Below, piece after piece: positions 1-4,243 of a stretch of DNA of 4,243 nucleotides; the stretch's first letter is position 1; each line of letters begins with the position of its first letter. The stretch comes from a virus (taxonomy: Duplodnaviria > Heunggongvirae > Uroviricota > Caudoviricetes). The DNA lies in IMG/VR virus record IMGVR_UViG_3300014510_000013; one strand, 5' to 3'. The position numbers were made by a program, and so were the translations under genes. The notes under the pieces were generated by a model that was not told where the DNA came from, did no database searches, and worked only from the letters and a program-made list of their open reading frames with translations.

Positions 1-349
1 GCGCCGCCTCAATTGCAGATAATCTTTGTCTTAATTCTGCGTTTTCTTCTTCCAGTGCTGTTATTCTGTCGTCTGACTCTCTGGCTACCTGAACAAGCAA
101 GCCAGTAACACCAGAATAATCTACTGTGTAATAACGTTCACCTTCTTCACCTTCCGATCCGCTCGCACCGTCCTGATATTTCATTGCGGAACCTACAACT
201 TCTGGGATTGCTTCCAGAGCTTCCTGTGCAATGACACCAGCATAGGGCATACCGTTTTCTTTAAGCGTGTATGTATAGCCGTTCATTTTACGGATGCGGT
301 CGGTTGCATTATCGATCACCTGAATGTTGTCTTTCAGATCCCGGTCGGA
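1..349 (-). other. Region encoding the intramolecular chaperone auto-processing domain (predicted cleavage before Ser227, codon 349..347; Lys232 codon 334..332)
   Basis: HSDRDLK motif with Ser/Lys spacing identical to the catalytic dyad of S74 chaperone domains; downstream conserved blocks as listed for the parent CDS. Confidence 0.65.
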
Positions 350-1027
350 ATGCTGGTTAAATGCGGTGGCATGACATGCACCATTAACGCTTAACATATA
401 GGTGTTATCGGTATTTTTCTGCGCATAGAACATATAAGCGCCACCATCAACACCGACTTCATAAACAACCGGACGGCTAGAGTTGCCCCACAATTTAGCA
501 GTAACACCAGCATAAGCGGTTCCCTGTGTGGTTAATGTCATGGTTGACCCGTGATTAGCATATTTGATCTGTAATGAGTCTGTATTATCAAACTTAATAA
601 GCGCGTTACTTCCCCGCACACCATACGACATGAGACAGTTCCCCATCTTAAGGTAACCATCACTGCCTGGAAAAATTAAAGTTCCTCCGTTAAGATCACT
701 AAAGTCCCAAAAGATACCTTTTGTCCCGTTATGTGTGACGATCCTCGTCATTGTATCTTTAGTACCATCAATATTTTTTCTGGTATATATGTCACTATAA
801 GCGTTTTCCGTTTCACCAGTCTTATTTGACAAATGCAGCTTACCGCTGAATATAGTTCCAGTTGTTGGCAATGTTTTTTGATCATAGATTACTTTGCAAT
901 AACCATTCCATGTTGTTTTATTGTCTACATAAGATTTTGTTGCGTAGCTTCCTTGATCGTTTTTTAATTTGCTAACGTCGGATTTTAGCGTTTTGATGTC
1001 ATCAGGAATTACTGTTTTTGTAACCAT
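1..1027 (-). CDS. Tail fibre / tailspike-like protein with C-terminal intramolecular chaperone (peptidase S74-like) domain; partial, C-terminus runs off the window start
   Basis: Minus-strand reading frame open from ATG at 1027..1025 to the window edge (342 codons, no stop); not in the ORF track because it is partial. GGAG at 1038..1035, 7 nt upstream of the ATG. My hand translation begins MVTKTVIPDDIKTLKSDVSKLKNDQGSYATKSYVDNKTTWNGY. Residues 227-342 (nt 349..2) read SDRDLKDNIQVIDNATDRIRKMNGYTYTLKENGMPYAGVIAQEALEAIPEVV...ERYYTVDYSGVTGLLVQVARESDDRITALEEENAELRQRLSAIEAA, which matches the conserved pattern of the endosialidase/T5 L-shaped-fibre chaperone domain (Ser then Lys at i+5, G-x-IAQE, DYS..L..L, terminal helix). 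Family assignment is from memory, not a search. Confidence 0.75.
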   Translation of the reverse strand, partial: MVTKTVIPDDIKTLKSDVSKLKNDQGSYATKSYVDNKTTWNGYCKVIYDQKTLPTTGTIFSGKLHLSNKTGETENAYSDIYTRKNIDGTKDTMTRIVTHNGTKGIFWDFSDLNGGTLIFPGSDGYLKMGNCLMSYGVRGSNALIKFDNTDSLQIKYANHGSTMTLTTQGTAYAGVTAKLWGNSSRPVVYEVGVDGGAYMFYAQKNTDNTYMLSVNGACHATAFNQHSDRDLKDNIQVIDNATDRIRKMNGYTYTLKENGMPYAGVIAQEALEAIPEVVGSAMKYQDGASGSEGEEGERYYTVDYSGVTGLLVQVARESDDRITALEEENAELRQRLSAIEAA

Positions 1028-1039
1028 TGTCTTACTCCA

Positions 1040-1309
1040 TTAAGCCCATGTCCTTACATGCTGATCTGTCGTAATGAAAGGCATTAAAGAAGATATGTTT
1101 TTACTGCTATCAACAATCCTCATGTTTACGAAAAAACCACCGCGATCAATGCCTGTACATCTTTCGTTTTCTGGCTCCTCGTAATCAATAATGCAGCCAA
1201 TAACATCAACAAGAACCCCATTTTCTTCTTCAAGACTGAACAGGCCACTGTCATATACAATTGCGTTAAACTGTTCTCTGTTATCGAATCGTAATGTTAT
1301 ATCCCGCAT
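1040..1309 (-). CDS. Hypothetical small acidic protein (89 aa), translationally coupled to stf; function unknown, possibly a fibre assembly or adaptor factor
   Basis: ORF from the track. ATG at 1309..1307 shares one nucleotide with the stf stop TAA (1311..1309), giving a TAATG overlap. AAGGAA lies 8 nt upstream inside the stf 3' end. Stop TAA at 1042..1040. About 16 Asp+Glu versus 8 Lys+Arg; no transmembrane-length hydrophobic segment. I recognise no similarity to lambda Tfa / T4 gp38. Confidence 0.6.
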   Translation of the reverse strand: MRDITLRFDNREQFNAIVYDSGLFSLEEENGVLVDVIGCIIDYEEPENERCTGIDRGGFFVNMRIVDSSKNISSLMPFITTDQHVRTWA

Positions 1310-3672
1310 TATACGTATTCCTTAAGCTGCGTATCTGACAATGCTCTGTTCCAGAAACGGAGGTTTTTTATATGACCATTAAGGTGTCGTAATCCTGTCG
1401 TCGTTTGCCCCCCGATTCGAATCACGGCTGCTTCACGAATATATTTCCATACTGTTTTGGTTTCAGTGCTTATATGCTTATTTGCAAATGAGCATGTCAT
1501 GCCGTCAGCCTTAACCCTGAATCCCATAACGAGATCTCTTACTCCGCATGACTCATATACACGCCGGTTAGCCCCGCCTATATCGCAATACGAATAACCA
1601 TCCTGACTGATAGTTCCAGAAGAACCAAACCCCATAATAAATAGGCCTCCGGACTGGTGATTTTCTGAATCAATGACACGCGGTGCAGCATTATGAGAAA
1701 TAAACCAGTTTTTATGGACTTCCACCATGAACGTAAAAGGCATGGTATACATATTTTTCATCAGCGGAAACTTACATAAATCTGATGCACGAGTCGCTGG
1801 CTCTGTTGTCGTTATGATAAAGGAAGTTGCACAAGCACCATACTCAAATTGCGGGGTGGTTACTTCTATCCAGTCACCTGTTGCAAAAGACCCCACAGCT
1901 CTGTCGGCTGCAATTTGCAACTGCGTACCAACCATTCCCCATTCTGGCAGACATTTCAGGGTTGCCTGAAAATATATCCATCCACTACCTGGATCGATTT
2001 CAAAGTTTGCTGTTAATAGCTGGGCATTATCACCCGTAATTTGTAGTTCATGGGTCTGTAATGACAAATAGGCGTCACAAAGGAAAGTGTATCCTTCCGA
2101 GTTATACCGTTCAAAACGGATACGTGCGCGAACATTGAGATCACTTCTTACCCTGAACGACGCGGTAACATACGGACCTTTACTGTACTGATCATCGCCA
2201 GTCACATCTATGCCTCTATTACCAGCAACTGTGCATATATTTCTCCCTGTTGTCGTTCCTGCTATGTCGCTTCCTACTGTGAAACGTCCATATTTAAACT
2301 CAAATTCATCTGTTGATGATGTTACAGATATACCACCGCTTTTATTCCACGCATCAGGATTAAAACTATTTACGAACATGTTTGTTCGCTGATTCTCTAT
2401 CAGCAAACCATATTTTTCAAAACGAGGAACGTTATTCCCTGCCACGGTAATATGCCCGGACTTATCAATATACGTTGCAGATGAAGCCCGGCTAAATTGG
2501 CATATGCCATTAACTGGCACAGTAATTTCATCGCTGCCGATGGTTATTGTTTTATACCCCGGCGCATACCCTGTTATCGCTTCCAGAGAATCATTCAAGG
2601 GTAGCCAGATATCAGGAAGCGGAGGGACAGAAGCAGGATCAGCGGCATCTTCTGCAATCCTGGCTGCATTCTCTGCTCTTGTTGCGGCTGACGTTGCTTC
2701 TGTCTCGCTGGCTGCTGCTTTTGTTTCGCTCGCCTTTGCGTTAGTTTCACTGGTTTTTGCAGCTTTTTGGCTATTAGCTGCCGCTGTTGCAGAACCGGCT
2801 GCAGCACTCTCGCTTTCGGCTGCTGCATCCTGACTGCTTTTCGCCGCAGTTTCGCTGGCTTTGGCATTCGTTTCGCTGGTCTTTGCTGCCGTCTGGCTGG
2901 ACTTTGCGTTAGTTTCACTCGTCTTTNNNNNNNNNNNNNNNNNNNNNNNNNNNNNNNNNNNNNNNNNNNNNNNNNNNNNNNNNNNNNNNNNNNNNNNNNN
3001 NNNNNNNNNNNNNNNNNNNNNNNNNNNNNNNNNNTTTTTTGCCGCAGTTTCACTGGCTTTGGCATTCGTTTCGCTGGTCTTCGCTGCCGTCTGGCTGGAC
3101 TTTGCGTTGGTTTCGCTCGTCTTTGCGGCTGTCTCGCTGTTTTTTGCGTTGGTTTCTGATTTTTTGGCTGCTGTCGCGGAGTTTGCCGATGCAGTCTGCG
3201 AGGTCGCTGCCGCCTGTGCGCTGTTAGCTGCATTCGTTTCTGAGGTTTTCGCCGCGTTCTTCGATGATGCCGCTGCAGTTTCGGATTTCTTTGCCGCCGC
3301 TGCGCTCTGAGAGGCGGCTTCAGCGTTGCGTGCCGCTTCTTCCACCATTTCCTCAAAACGACGCAATGCCTCCGGCATGACATCATCTTCCGTCATGGCG
3401 CCGAGAAAATCATTCAGCGTACCTGGTCTGGAACCTTCATAGACGGTAATGGTCCCGGCATGTGAAGGCGGAAAACCTTCAACCAGCAGGATGACGCTGT
3501 ACTGGCCATACTCAACATCCAGGCTGTACCGTCCGTCTTCATCCGGATTTTCAGAGGCCACCGTGTTCACCAGTACCGTGGTGCTGTTACGCTTTGCCTT
3601 CAGTTGAATAGTGCAGTTCTGTATTGGTTTTCCCGCACCATCTTTCAGCACACCTGAAATCTGTACTGCCAT
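1309..3672 (-). CDS. stf: Side tail fibre protein: lambda Stf-like N-terminal domain, Ala/Ser/Thr-rich heptad-repeat shaft, divergent distal domain
   Basis: Long minus-strand ORF; the track starts at GTG 3678, but the in-frame ATG at 3672..3670 has GGAG at 3681..3678 and gives MAVQISGVLKDGAGKPIQNCTIQLKAKRNSTTV, which I recall as the conserved N-terminus of lambda-family Stf proteins (not searched). Central K-x-S-E-T-[N/A]-A heptads. C-terminus ends GHIKNLRFWNRALSDTQLKEYV, stop TAA 1311..1309. The ORF stays in frame across the 108-N run. Confidence 0.88.
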   Translation of the reverse strand: MAVQISGVLKDGAGKPIQNCTIQLKAKRNSTTVLVNTVASENPDEDGRYSLDVEYGQYSVILLVEGFPPSHAGTITVYEGSRPGTLNDFLGAMTEDDVMPEALRRFEEMVEEAARNAEAASQSAAAAKKSETAAASSKNAAKTSETNAANSAQAAATSQTASANSATAAKKSETNAKNSETAAKTSETNAKSSQTAAKTSETNAKASETAAKXXXXXXXXXXXXXXXXXXXXXXXXXXXXXXXXXXXXXKTSETNAKSSQTAAKTSETNAKASETAAKSSQDAAAESESAAAGSATAAANSQKAAKTSETNAKASETKAAASETEATSAATRAENAARIAEDAADPASVPPLPDIWLPLNDSLEAITGYAPGYKTITIGSDEITVPVNGICQFSRASSATYIDKSGHITVAGNNVPRFEKYGLLIENQRTNMFVNSFNPDAWNKSGGISVTSSTDEFEFKYGRFTVGSDIAGTTTGRNICTVAGNRGIDVTGDDQYSKGPYVTASFRVRSDLNVRARIRFERYNSEGYTFLCDAYLSLQTHELQITGDNAQLLTANFEIDPGSGWIYFQATLKCLPEWGMVGTQLQIAADRAVGSFATGDWIEVTTPQFEYGACATSFIITTTEPATRASDLCKFPLMKNMYTMPFTFMVEVHKNWFISHNAAPRVIDSENHQSGGLFIMGFGSSGTISQDGYSYCDIGGANRRVYESCGVRDLVMGFRVKADGMTCSFANKHISTETKTVWKYIREAAVIRIGGQTTTGLRHLNGHIKNLRFWNRALSDTQLKEYV
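2632..3330 (-). repeat. Tandem 21-nt (heptad-coding) repeat array inside stf, with higher-order units of about 198 nt
   Basis: Protein reads KKSETNA KNSETAA KTSETNA KSSQTAA KTSETNA KASETAA on both sides of the gap. On the + strand 2843..2926 and 3041..3124 are 84-nt copies with 4 mismatches, offset 198 nt. Confidence 0.8.
2927..3034. other. Run of 108 N (masked or unresolved sequence) inside the stf repeat array
   Basis: Directly visible; the length is a multiple of 3, so the stf frame continues across it. Confidence 0.99.
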
Positions 3673-3683
3673 ACTCACTCCAC

Positions 3684-3711
3684 AAATAAAAAAGGCGCCA
3701 TTGCTGGCGCC
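3684..3711 (-). terminator. Rho-independent terminator-like hairpin plus U-tract between the upstream tail gene and stf
   Basis: The minus strand reads GGCGCCA-GCAA-TGGCGCC (perfect 7-bp GC-rich stem, 4-nt loop; + coords 3711..3694) followed immediately by TTTTTTATTT (3693..3684). It lies between the upstream ORF stop (TGA 3735..3733) and the stf RBS. Confidence 0.6.
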
Positions 3712-3732
3712 CGTATTGGGGTTATAAATATT

Positions 3733-4243
3733 TCAACGGATACTGATACCGGAAGCAGCTTTTTTGGTCACAATCACCGTACAGTCTGTGATGTTTCCTG
3801 CGCCCTGATTGCCTTTCTGGAAAATCTTAAACTCCAGAGTGACGTTACCACCACCACTCGGCATATCAATAACCGCACTGTAACTACCGGGAATGGCTCC
3901 TTTAGTTTCTCTGGATGCGATTAATACGCCATTTTTGCGAACTTCAAAACCATAACCCGTGTATCGCGTACCTCCCGGGTTATTACCGCTCCCCGGATCG
4001 TCATACGCCACACCGTTAAAAATAATGGGCGGAATAATGATTTGGCGGTCAAAGTTATGATCATCGTAAATGGTGACTGTAACCGTCCCGTTTGGTGTTT
4101 CCGTGTTACCCCACGTACCAGCCTTTTTCGGGAATGATTTGGATACAGTTTTAACGAAGTCACCTCTGACCTGGTTCGCCTCCAGCATGCCCTTAATCGT
4201 ACAGTTTTCATTTACCGTGACATTATTGAGCGTCCCGGAGTTC
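3733..4243 (-). CDS. C-terminal fragment of a phage tail structural protein (possibly central tail fibre / host-specificity J-like); 5' end lies outside the window
   Basis: The track ORF starts at Met 4188, but the frame stays open upstream to the window end (my translation of 4243..4189: NSGTLNNVTVNENCTIKG, no stop), so it is the end of a longer protein. Gly/Thr/Val-rich, beta-strand-like composition; stop TGA 3735..3733. Immediately upstream of stf, where lambdoid phages carry J (and sometimes lom). This is not Lom-like by my recollection of the Lom sequence. Identity is tentative. Confidence 0.55.
   Translation of the reverse strand, partial: NSGTLNNVTVNENCTIKGMLEANQVRGDFVKTVSKSFPKKAGTWGNTETPNGTVTVTIYDDHNFDRQIIIPPIIFNGVAYDDPGSGNNPGGTRYTGYGFEVRKNGVLIASRETKGAIPGSYSAVIDMPSGGGNVTLEFKIFQKGNQGAGNITDCTVIVTKKAASGISIR

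What the first reader, a model, noticed from the sequence alone, without database searches (positions are those of the whole stretch)
1..3672. Non-canonical receptor-binding module: stf, then a coupled 89-aa acidic ORF and a compact self-chaperoned fibre, where lambda has stf-tfa
In lambda-type phages stf is followed by tfa, a chaperone of about 190 aa homologous to T4 gp38. Here that slot holds an 89-aa acidic protein with no Tfa-like features I can recognise, followed 12 nt later by a roughly 350-aa protein carrying its own intramolecular chaperone. The three genes are packed like one translational unit. This suggests either a branched or dual-specificity fibre (the short protein docking on Stf) or a different assembly pathway for an Stf with a non-gp37-type distal domain.
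Basis: partly seen in the sequence, partly recalled or inferred. Interest (0 to 1): 0.6.

Follow-up and report, generated by a model that had tools for sequence, protein, structure and literature searches.

The report
Two-fibre cassette with non-Tfa partner protein
This lambda-like prophage carries a widespread, swappable three-gene host-recognition cassette: a side tail fibre with a lectin-like tip, an uncharacterised 89-residue partner protein in the place of the usual fibre chaperone Tfa, and a second short fibre. The two-fibre layout has been described in other phages, but nobody has studied the small protein.

Summary
All genes lie on the minus strand. stf (3672..1309) ends in TAATG, which starts an 89-aa acidic ORF (1309..1040, pI 4.4). 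Twelve nt later a fibre of 342+ aa begins (1027..1) and carries a Peptidase_S74 intramolecular chaperone. No Tfa is present.

The arrangement is not peculiar to this window. The same cassette occurs in lambdoid phages (PhiR11_1), T5-like phages (AKFV33, IrisVonRoten/Bas32), Queuovirinae (JenP1, VogelGryff), Drexlerviridae and Dhillonvirus. Phage 21, Vequintavirus and P2-like prophages carry it without the second fibre. The window's variant is in 132 of 5426 complete E. coli genomes.

The invariant core is a pair: a fibre distal module (conserved neck, variable beta-sandwich, LamG/galectin-like end) plus the ~90-aa protein (PHROG 1361, function unknown). That protein shows no sequence, profile or fold relation to Tfa. 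The second fibre is optional. When present it starts with T-x-T-x-IP-x-DI-x-x-LK whatever the phage type, and 76 of 77 such starts follow an orf89 homologue.

Best reading: orf89 is the distal module's dedicated assembly or partner protein, and fibre B docks on the cassette to give a fibre with two binding domains. A 2025 paper already models fibre B attached to fibre A in Bas32 but ignores the small protein. Interest is moderate.

The parts
3733..4243 (-). 3' end of gene J (central tail fibre; C-terminal receptor-binding domain). Partial: it runs off the window.
   Evidence: PF12421 Ig_GpJ_C, E 8e-27; phrog_2148 positions 757-900; annotated J in PhiR11_1.
3693..3712 (-). G+C-rich hairpin followed by a T-run between J and stf (terminator-like). 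No lom gene lies here.
   Evidence: The same position is annotated as a terminator in the phage 21 record.
1309..3672 (-). stf, the side tail fibre ('fibre A'), 787 aa counted from the ATG (789 from the upstream GTG).
   Evidence: phrog_1419 full length, E 0; 93% identical to PhiR11_1 Stf.
3280..3672 (-). Stf N-terminal lambda-type attachment (collar) domain.
   Evidence: PF08400, E 5e-67; 81% identical to lambda Stf residues 1-129. The collar function is taken from the Ur-lambda structure (PMC12617516).
2638..3330 (-). Ala/Ser/Thr-rich repeat shaft (AAKTSETNAK-type repeats). It includes the masked N run at 2927-3034.
   Evidence: Translations; strong AT skew.
2377..2637 (-). Conserved 'neck' of the distal module (PLPDIWLPLNDSL...YIDKSG...PRFE..GLLIE..RTN).
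   Evidence: Invariant columns in A3. Mean identity 0.71-0.80 and the highest correlation with orf89 identity (rho up to 0.70) over 106 pairs. Found in 215 phage records.
1786..2403 (-). Variable beta-sandwich domain, the presumed receptor-binding part.
   Evidence: NCBIfam GTA_spike_fiber, 47 bits against a cut-off of 36, residues 426-631. It is the only confidently modelled part of the AF2 model. Mean identity 0.40-0.53 across relatives.
1312..1785 (-). C-terminal LamG/galectin-like domain, ending ...GHIKNLRFWNRALSDTQLKEYV.
   Evidence: Laminin_G_3 hit below threshold (E 5e-4 to 9e-4; 10 of 18 relatives hit). Described as 'galectin-like domain' for Bas32 Gp22 in PMC11990801. The AF2 model is of low confidence here.
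1040..1309 (-). orf89: an acidic ~10-kDa alpha/beta protein, the cassette's conserved partner protein (PHROG 1361).
   Evidence: phrog_1361, E 1e-30; family of ~99 clusters, nearly all stand-alone proteins of 86-96 aa plus a few shorter fragments; AF2 pLDDT 82; always immediately downstream of the distal module.
1028..1039 (-). 12-nt spacer with a GGAG ribosome-binding site.
1..1027 (-). Fibre B: a short second tail fibre. Partial (342 of ~346 codons).
   Evidence: phrog_4563, E 9e-207; 90% identical to the PhiR11_1 346-aa protein; 83% identical to JenP1 gp25.
983..1027 (-). Fibre B N-terminal conserved peptide MVTKTVIPDDIKTLK, the putative docking peptide.
   Evidence: The motif is conserved in lambdoid, T5-like, Queuovirinae, Drexlerviridae and Dhillonvirus cassettes while the fibre bodies differ. 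76 of 77 true motif sites lie 12-22 nt after an orf89 homologue. It is kept through 5-7 synonymous codon changes.
194..349 (-). Peptidase_S74 intramolecular chaperone core of fibre B. The S-D-R-D-L-K motif starts at residue 227.
   Evidence: PF13884, 52.5 bits against a cut-off of 22; motif position.

Best explanation
The window holds a lambdoid-prophage copy of a horizontally mobile receptor-binding cassette with three parts.

1. **Fibre A (Stf).** It attaches to the tail through a lambda-type N-terminal collar domain. It carries a distal module that is not gp37-like: a conserved neck, a variable beta-sandwich and a LamG/galectin-like C-terminal head. It has no intramolecular chaperone.
2. 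**orf89.** This ~90-aa acidic alpha/beta protein is translationally coupled to fibre A. It is the distal module's obligate partner and takes the place that Tfa (lambda) or gpG (P2) holds in canonical fibres. It most likely acts as a dedicated assembly factor that works on the conserved parts of the fibre (the neck and the C-terminal end) rather than on the variable receptor-binding part.
3. **Fibre B.** This optional short fibre folds with its own C-terminal S74 chaperone. It docks non-covalently, through its conserved N-terminal peptide and short coiled coil, onto the conserved part of the cassette. The side fibre then presents two different receptor-binding domains, probably for glycans such as O-antigens.

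**Shown:** gene anatomy and coupling; homology and synteny across phage families; lack of any relation to Tfa; strict co-occurrence.

**Inferred:** that orf89 assists assembly; that fibre B docks on fibre A; the nature of the receptors.
For: **Anatomy and coupling**
- Searches give the gene anatomy and coupling.
- The stf/orf89 junction has the same 1-nt overlap as lambda stf/tfa.

**orf89 always follows the distal module, whatever the fibre's N-terminus**
- Lambda Stf type: the window, PhiR11_1 and phage 21.
- T5 Ltf type: AKFV33 and Bas32.
- Queuovirinae. Drexlerviridae and Dhillonvirus. Vequintavirus.
- P2 gpH type, where orf89 sits in the gpG slot and no Caudo_TAP protein is present.

**orf89 is kept where there is no fibre B**
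- Prophages ending in a terminator right after it, and phage 21. Its role therefore concerns fibre A.

**orf89 goes with the conserved parts of fibre A, not the receptor-binding part**
- One and the same orf89 sequence serves two divergent receptor-binding variants (L039 against L042).
- Across 106 pairs, orf89 identity tracks the conserved neck (rho 0.70). It does not track the nearer variable domains (rho 0.1-0.3).

**Fibre B docks on the shared cassette**
- Its N-terminal motif is constant across phage types whose fibre A N-termini differ.
- The motif was found only directly after orf89: 76 of 77 sites, with the last one cut by a contig end.
- It is maintained through synonymous changes.

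**Published support**
- An AlphaFold-Multimer model for the homologous Bas32 cassette attaches Gp24 to Gp22, and describes a C-terminal galectin-like domain on Gp22 (PMC11990801).
- AKFV33 fibre A is a virion protein by mass spectrometry (PMC3326045).
- Bas32 infects K-12 with restored O16 antigen (PMC8594841).
Against: - There is no direct evidence that orf89 binds or folds anything.
- LamG-type domains usually fold without help, so the need for a chaperone is not obvious.
- The correlation of orf89 with the neck could simply reflect both being conserved flanks, used as homology arms when the variable domain is swapped.
- Virion proteomics of phages with the cassette were too shallow to say whether orf89 is in the particle.
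- The LamG assignment is below Pfam's threshold, and the AF2 model of that region has pLDDT around 30.
- One locus (L037) has a fibre B with a different N-terminus.
Confidence: 0.55

Rival explanations
1. orf89 is a structural joint or adaptor that stays in the virion. It would bind the conserved neck or end of fibre A and form the socket for the N-terminal peptide of fibre B, much as T4 gp35 joins half-fibres or as adaptor proteins do in dual-tailspike phages.
For: - The fibre B motif is found only directly after orf89.
- orf89 is made in a coupled, near-stoichiometric way between the two fibre genes.
- It tracks conserved rather than variable parts of fibre A.
- DT57C-type and phiEco32-type two-fibre systems use a different docking N-terminus and have no small ORF, so orf89 goes with this particular docking standard.
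- It has a strictly conserved C-terminal R-x-W-(A/M/S) tail.
Against: - orf89 is retained, with the same invariant residues, in cassettes that have no fibre B: phage 21, P2-like prophages, Vequintavirus and many other prophages.
- The published text on the Bas32 model describes fibre B attaching to proximal fibre Gp22 and does not discuss the small protein.
- No virion detection has been reported, although those surveys were shallow.
Confidence: 0.25
2. Fibre B does not sit on Stf. It attaches elsewhere on the tail tip as an independent or alternative fibre, or it is a leftover of an earlier stf 3' end displaced by recombination.
For: - The fibre B tip plus chaperone is also found as the C-terminal end of long single-chain fibres in many phages (phrog_6578), as expected if tips move by recombination.
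- DT57C LtfA carries a fibre-B-like module fused in frame.
Against: - Fibre B has its own ribosome-binding site and start codon, and a PHROG of exactly its length.
- Its N-terminus has no PF08400 or other tail-attachment domain.
- That N-terminus is the same in lambdoid, T5-like, T1-like and Queuovirinae phages, whose tails and fibre A N-termini differ. It therefore cannot be adapted to each baseplate.
- It is conserved in virulent phages, where dead genes are rare.
- Selection acts on the peptide rather than on the DNA.
Confidence: 0.1
3. orf89 has nothing to do with the fibre. It would be a small cargo gene (moron), for example for anti-defence, exclusion or regulation, that hitch-hikes next to tail fibre genes.
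For: - The regions downstream of prophage tail fibres are known moron sites.
- The protein has no recognisable domain.
- A small membrane protein of unknown function also travels with some cassettes.
Against: - It has strict synteny and start/stop overlap with the fibre gene in virulent and temperate phages of at least seven groups.
- It lies between two structural genes inside late operons.
- It has no signal peptide or membrane segment, and no PADLOC hit.
- It replaces Tfa/gpG in the lambda-like and P2-like contexts.
Confidence: 0.05

Closest known systems
AKFV33 / IrisVonRoten (Bas32)-type lateral tail fibre locus of T5-like phages (ltpA-orf136-ltpB; Gp22-Gp23-Gp24)
   Same: All three genes are homologous. 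The fibre A distal ~480 aa are 31-46% identical, the small protein 31-33%, and fibre B has the same N-terminal motif and an S74 chaperone. The literature treats the two large proteins as one fibre, with Gp24 attached to proximal Gp22, which ends in a galectin-like domain (PMC3326045, PMC11990801).
   Different: Here the module is grafted on a lambda Stf N-terminus instead of the T5 Ltf N-terminus. Fibre B is a short 346-aa single-tip fibre, not the 557-586-aa 'T-shaped' dual-domain fibre. The small protein is not analysed in either paper.
Lambda stf-tfa (and P2 H-G, Mu S-U): a fibre plus a Tfa chaperone
   Same: The window's Stf N-terminal domain is 81% identical to lambda's. A small acidic protein is encoded immediately downstream with the same 1-nt stop/start overlap. 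In P2-like prophages the orf89 homologue occupies the gpG position.
   Different: There is no sequence, profile or fold similarity to Tfa. orf89 is half the size, and the fibre tip is LamG/galectin-like rather than gp37-like. orf89 follows the conserved part of the fibre rather than the specificity-determining tip.
DT57C LtfA/LtfB branched lateral tail fibres (and phiEco32 gp14/gp15)
   Same: Two adjacent fibre genes. Only the first has a tail-attachment N-terminus, and the second is proposed to hang on the first through a short conserved N-terminal region. The result is dual O-antigen specificity (PMC4728585).
   Different: DT57C has no small ORF between the genes. LtfA has its own S74 chaperone, and the LtfB N-terminus and the LtfA docking region are unrelated to those here.
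Anchor-branch dual depolymerase systems of Klebsiella KP32-like phages; T4 gp34-gp35-gp36-gp37
   Same: A second receptor-binding protein attaches non-covalently through a short conserved N-terminal peptide (own knowledge; PMC6872550 came up but was not read here), or small joint proteins link half-fibres (T4 gp35; own knowledge).
   Different: No sequence relationship was detected. These are functional analogies only.

Membership tests
Tfa / Caudo_TAP tail fibre assembly proteins (lambda Tfa, P2 gpG, Mu Tfa, T4 gp38) | Profile match to the Caudo_TAP / Tfa family | tested here: not met
   No hit for orf89 at E up to 0.1. None of 55 family members hits it at E up to 1. hhalign of the family profile against lambda Tfa gives probability 0.1%.
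Tfa / Caudo_TAP tail fibre assembly proteins (lambda Tfa, P2 gpG, Mu Tfa, T4 gp38) | Encoded immediately downstream of, and coupled to, the fibre gene | tested here: met
   TAATG overlap at 1309; the same geometry as lambda orf-314/orf-194.
Tfa / Caudo_TAP tail fibre assembly proteins (lambda Tfa, P2 gpG, Mu Tfa, T4 gp38) | Fold similar to solved fibre chaperones | tested here: not met
Tfa / Caudo_TAP tail fibre assembly proteins (lambda Tfa, P2 gpG, Mu Tfa, T4 gp38) | Required for trimerisation or folding of the fibre tip | not testable with these tools
   Needs co-expression or deletion experiments.
AKFV33/Bas32-type three-gene lateral fibre cassette | Fibre A distal module (neck + beta-sandwich + LamG-like end) homologous | tested here: met
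   31-46% identity over ~480-680 aa to AKFV33 orf137, Bas32 Gp22 and Bas25 Gp22.
AKFV33/Bas32-type three-gene lateral fibre cassette | ~90-aa protein of PHROG 1361 directly after fibre A | tested here: met
   phrog_1361, E 1e-30; tblastn and alignment.
AKFV33/Bas32-type three-gene lateral fibre cassette | Fibre B starting with T-x-T-x-IP-x-DI-x-x-LK and ending in an S74 chaperone | tested here: met
   MVTKTVIPDDIKTLK at residues 1-15; PF13884 at 52.5 bits.
DT57C LtfA/LtfB branched fibre | LtfB-type (phiEco32 gp15-like) N-terminus on the second fibre and a gp14-like docking region in the first | tested here: not met
   BLASTP finds no similarity of the LtfB N-terminus to fibre B, and only Ala-rich shaft similarity of LtfA to Stf.
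DT57C LtfA/LtfB branched fibre | Both fibres carry a C-terminal S74 chaperone | tested here: not met
   Stf has no PF13884 hit and ends in a LamG-like domain.
Lambda-type side tail fibre (Stf) | PF08400 N-terminal domain that forms the collar on the tail tip | tested here: met
   PF08400, 224 bits against a cut-off of 26.6; 81% identity to lambda Stf 1-129.
Lambda-type side tail fibre (Stf) | gp37-like distal domain with Tfa | tested here: not met
   No gp37 or Tfa signal. The distal module belongs to phrog_1419/5939 with GTA_spike_fiber and LamG-like hits.
Peptidase_S74 self-cleaving intramolecular chaperone fibres | PF13884 above the gathering score, with the conserved Ser-Asp-x-x-x-Lys site | tested here: met
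   52.5 bits against 22; SDRDLKDN at fibre B residue 227. The cleavage itself cannot be tested here.
Laminin_G_3 / concanavalin-A-like lectin domain (Stf C-terminus) | Pfam PF13385 above the gathering score | tested here: inconclusive
   20-21 bits against a cut-off of 27.6, covering only profile positions 103-150. 10 of 18 relatives hit at E up to 0.01. AF2 confidence is low in this region. 'Galectin-like' in a published model of Bas32 Gp22.

The most novel reading that the evidence does not exclude
The PHROG-1361 proteins are a new class of tail-fibre accessory protein, unrelated to Tfa, gp38, gp57A or S74 chaperones. They would stay at the neck of the fibre as a small joint and define a universal plug-and-socket standard. 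Any fibre carrying the neck module plus orf89 could then accept any second fibre that starts with T-x-T-x-IP-x-DI-x-x-LK, across siphophage and myophage families.
Probability: 0.25. Interest if true: 0.65.

Novelty: new variant of a known kind. Interest (0 to 1): 0.45.

Why it matters
Tail-fibre swapping is the main route to re-targeting phages and phage-derived delivery particles, and chimeric fibres fail when the cognate accessory protein is left out.

This cassette is common. It is in 215 sequenced phage records, and this one variant is in 2.4% of complete E. coli genomes. It spans lambda-like, T1-like, T5-like, Queuovirinae, Dhillonvirus, rV5-like and P2-like phages. Yet its small protein is annotated 'hypothetical' everywhere.

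If orf89 is the required assembly or joint factor, it must be included in any engineered fibre that uses these lectin-tipped modules. The conserved fibre B N-terminal peptide would then offer a ready-made way to add a second specificity.

It would also show that lambda-type and P2-type fibres can dispense with Tfa.

Tried and rejected
- **Single-sequence searches for orf89.** The word-indexed search returned only fragments. phmmer over 1.8 billion representatives returned 6 hits. Of these, P0007 and P0008 are repeat-protein false positives and P0005 is a frameshifted assembly. An alignment-based search was needed.
- **Genome-contig scan with the orf89 profile.** It found nothing, probably because the chosen peptide pattern was too narrow, and I did not repeat it.
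- **Fold searches for orf89.** The PDB gave only generic alpha+beta matches. BFVD gave only uncharacterised ~80-105-aa phage proteins. Neither gives a functional lead.
- **AF2 model of Stf 345-789.** Mean pLDDT was 51, and only residues 444-607 were confident. The Foldseek hits (best: Pa193 tail fibre, E 1.5e-3) are too weak to use.
- **PDB sequence searches.** They found nothing useful for the Stf distal part or for orf89.
- **Virion proteomics papers.** AKFV33 was analysed from 4 gel bands and mar004NP2 yielded 8 proteins. Both detect fibre A, but they are too shallow to judge orf89 or fibre B.
- **Group-specific residues in orf89.** I looked for positions that distinguish cassettes with and without fibre B and found none.
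- **Heteromeric structure prediction.** Co-folding fibre A, orf89 and fibre B was not possible with the tools and caps available.
- **Literature.** The Hf4s, Eligo base-editing, RBPseg, OSYSP, KanT1, BF23 and O-antigen shield review papers do not discuss the small protein.

Full report
**Observation**

The window encodes, all on the minus strand, four things in order:
- the 3' end of J (4243..3733; PF12421, E 8e-27);
- a strong hairpin followed by a T-run (3712..3693);
- stf (ATG at 3672, stop at 1309);
- an 89-codon ORF (1309..1040) and a further ORF that starts at 1027 and runs off the window after 342 codons.

The stf stop and the orf89 start share one base (TAATG). The orf89 stop and the next ATG are exactly 12 nt apart, with a GGAG between them. 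No promoter-like or terminator-like site lies at the gene junctions; the two weak sigma-70-like matches inside stf and fibre B are fewer than shuffled controls give.

orf89 is acidic (pI 4.38, 10.3 kDa). The last ORF carries a Peptidase_S74 intramolecular chaperone at residues 227-278 (52.5 bits against a cut-off of 22), and its closest full-length homologues are 346 aa. No ORF matches Tfa/Caudo_TAP. The stated coordinates and description are therefore correct.

A run of 108 N (2927-3034) masks part of the Ala/Ser/Thr-rich repeat shaft of stf.

**What the three proteins are**

*Stf.* Its first ~130 residues are a lambda-type attachment domain (PF08400, E 5e-67; 81% identical to lambda Stf 1-129). 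In Ur-lambda this domain forms the collar on the tail tip (PMC12617516). After the repeat shaft comes a distal module of about 440 residues that is not gp37-like. It has three parts:
- a highly conserved neck (residues ~348-434; many invariant columns);
- a variable beta-sandwich (NCBIfam GTA_spike_fiber, 47 bits against 36), which is the only part AF2 modelled confidently;
- a C-terminal region with a sub-threshold Laminin_G_3 match. A published model of the Bas32 homologue describes this as a protruding galectin-like domain (PMC11990801).

*orf89.* It belongs to PHROG 1361, 'unknown function' (E 1e-30). It has no Pfam, NCBIfam or PADLOC match.

*The third protein ('fibre B').* It belongs to PHROG 4563. 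Its tip and chaperone are shared at 41-60% identity with the C-terminal ends of tail fibres in many E. coli and Salmonella phages.

**orf89 is not a Tfa**

The family profile against lambda Tfa gives hhalign probability 0.1%. None of 55 diverse members hits Caudo_TAP even at E = 1.

The family comprises ~99 clusters at 90% identity. Nearly all are stand-alone proteins of 86-96 aa (a few clusters are shorter fragments), there are no fusions, and almost all are named 'hypothetical'. Invariant positions include M1, D3, F8, I37-G38, R64 and a C-terminal R-x-W-(A/M/S).

**The cassette is widespread and modular**

orf89 homologues sit in the same position, directly after a fibre with the same distal module, in many phage groups:

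| Phage group | Examples |
|---|---|
| Lambdoid | PhiR11_1, PhiR47_1, PhiR55_1 |
| T5-like | AKFV33, IrisVonRoten/Bas32, L6jm, FFH_1 and others |
| Queuovirinae | VogelGryff/Bas25, JenP1 |
| Drexlerviridae | SLUR29 |
| Dhillonvirus | KarlBarth/Bas17 |
| Classical lambdoid | phage 21 |
| Vequintavirus myophages | nomo (a divergent 110-aa member, E 9e-14) |
| T5-like Aeromonas phage | AhP_Mru1 |
| P2-like prophages | fibre has a gpH-type N-terminus (PF12571); the small protein occupies the gpG/Tfa slot |

The fibre N-termini differ by phage type, while the distal ~480 residues are homologous at 31-63% identity. The neck alone is found in 215 phage records, and every one I inspected has an orf89 homologue after it. 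The window's own junction variant occurs in 132 of 5426 complete E. coli genomes.

**Which partner does orf89 belong to?**

Many cassettes have no second fibre:
- a common E. coli prophage type, in which orf89 is followed by an intrinsic terminator and the prophage end;
- phage 21;
- the P2-like prophages;
- nomo.

The invariant unit is therefore fibre A's distal module plus orf89.

The identical orf89 sequence accompanies two fibres whose variable domains differ strongly (L039 against L042). Over 106 non-redundant pairs, orf89 identity correlates best with the conserved neck ~1.3 kb away (Spearman 0.70). It correlates poorly with the nearer variable regions (0.1-0.3).

So orf89 is not a specificity factor matched to the receptor-binding tip. 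It goes with the conserved scaffold. The correlation could partly arise because neck and orf89 are the conserved flanks between which variable domains are exchanged.

**Fibre B**

Whenever a second fibre follows orf89, it begins with M-x-T-x-T-x-I-P-x-D-I-x-x-L-K (one exception, L037). This holds whether the phage is lambdoid, T5-like, T1-like, Dhillonvirus or Queuovirinae. The rest of the protein ranges from 231 to 586 aa and always ends in an S74 chaperone.

A DNA pattern for the motif recovered 80 IMG/VR loci. Of these, 77 are true ORF starts, 76 of them lie 12-22 nt after an orf89 homologue, and the remaining one is cut by a contig end.

The motif is kept through 5-7 synonymous codon differences in 16 codons between distant cassettes, so the peptide is under selection rather than the DNA.

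Fibre A's N-terminus changes with the tail it must fit, whereas fibre B's N-terminus does not. Fibre B must therefore dock on something common to all cassettes: the conserved part of fibre A, orf89, or both.

This agrees with the AlphaFold-Multimer model published for Bas32, in which Gp24 attaches to proximal fibre Gp22 (PMC11990801). It also agrees with the older view of AKFV33 ORF137/ORF135 as one two-protein fibre (PMC3326045).

DT57C's branched LtfA/LtfB system uses an unrelated docking N-terminus and has no small ORF. It is an analogue, not the same family.

**Mechanism proposed**

Stf mounts on the tail through its lambda-type collar. orf89 is made in step with it and assists or completes assembly of the distal module, which has neither Tfa nor an intramolecular chaperone. 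Fibre B trimerises with its own chaperone, cleaves it off, and plugs its N-terminal peptide and coiled coil into the conserved part of the cassette. The side fibre then shows a lectin-like head and a second tip.

Glycan (O-antigen) receptors are likely by analogy: Bas32 infects O16-restored K-12 (PMC8594841), and AKFV33 is O157-specific.

The homology, synteny and co-occurrence are shown. The assembly role, the docking site and the receptors are inferred.

The main rival is that orf89 is a retained joint protein. It cannot be separated from the chaperone reading with these tools. Published virion proteomics are too shallow, and no heteromeric prediction could be run.

**Novelty and verdict**

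The second is half met. The three-gene layout exists in studied phages, and the attachment of the second fibre to the first has been proposed. The small protein, however, has not been analysed in any paper I could find.

The window is thus an ordinary member of a common cassette. Its middle component is a widespread, uncharacterised, non-Tfa fibre accessory protein. It is of moderate interest, mainly for fibre engineering and for understanding fibre assembly without Tfa.

Noticed in passing
window 2927-3034: A run of 108 N lies inside stf, within the AAKTSETNAK-type Ala/Ser/Thr-rich repeats. It looks like database masking or an assembly gap, so the true repeat number and Stf length are uncertain. 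Relatives are 784-791 aa.
   Followed up: partly
window 3693-3712 (minus strand): A strong G+C hairpin plus T-run lies between J and stf, and there is no lom gene (lambda has J-lom-stf). The phage 21 record annotates a terminator at the same place. The fibre genes must therefore be read through by antitermination or have their own start.
   Followed up: partly
L001 9000-9287; L034 5289-5585; L035; L165 5590-5883 (beyond the window's left end): A 95-98-aa membrane protein (MDI(T/S)P.LHALCAVAAQ..., 2 predicted TM segments) follows the cassette in PhiR11_1, phage 21 and the P2-like prophages, whether or not fibre B is present. It has no Pfam or PADLOC hit. It may be a further travelling companion of the cassette, possibly for exclusion or receptor modification.
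   Followed up: partly
L037 1014-6782: An exceptional cassette: a 1325-aa fibre A, then an 88-aa orf89 homologue, then a 500-aa S74 fibre whose N-terminus (MSITTEGKVTAEK...) lacks the usual docking motif. This suggests a second docking standard.
   Followed up: no
E. coli genomes H71-H73, H76: Several E. coli chromosomes carry this stf interrupted by IS5 or IS3 elements. RefSeq then annotates the 3' part as 'phage head spike fiber domain-containing protein'.
   Followed up: no
P0003: A 64-aa E. coli protein whose first 36 residues are identical to orf89 is named 'CP4-44 prophage; predicted disrupted hemin or colicin receptor'. This is apparently a truncated orf89 with a misleading inherited name.
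   Followed up: no
L168 5550-6429 (KarlBarth/Bas17); L032 (VSe12): Fibre B is split into two ORFs (98 + 196 aa) in KarlBarth. In VSe12 it lacks its N-terminal motif. These may be frameshifts, sequencing errors or decay of the second fibre in some phages.
   Followed up: no
L007 4189-7419 (DT57C LtfA residues 511-1073): DT57C LtfA contains, fused in frame, a module 45% identical to nearly the whole of Bas32/AKFV33 fibre B. The same distal fibre therefore exists both as a separate docking protein and as a covalent extension.
   Followed up: partly
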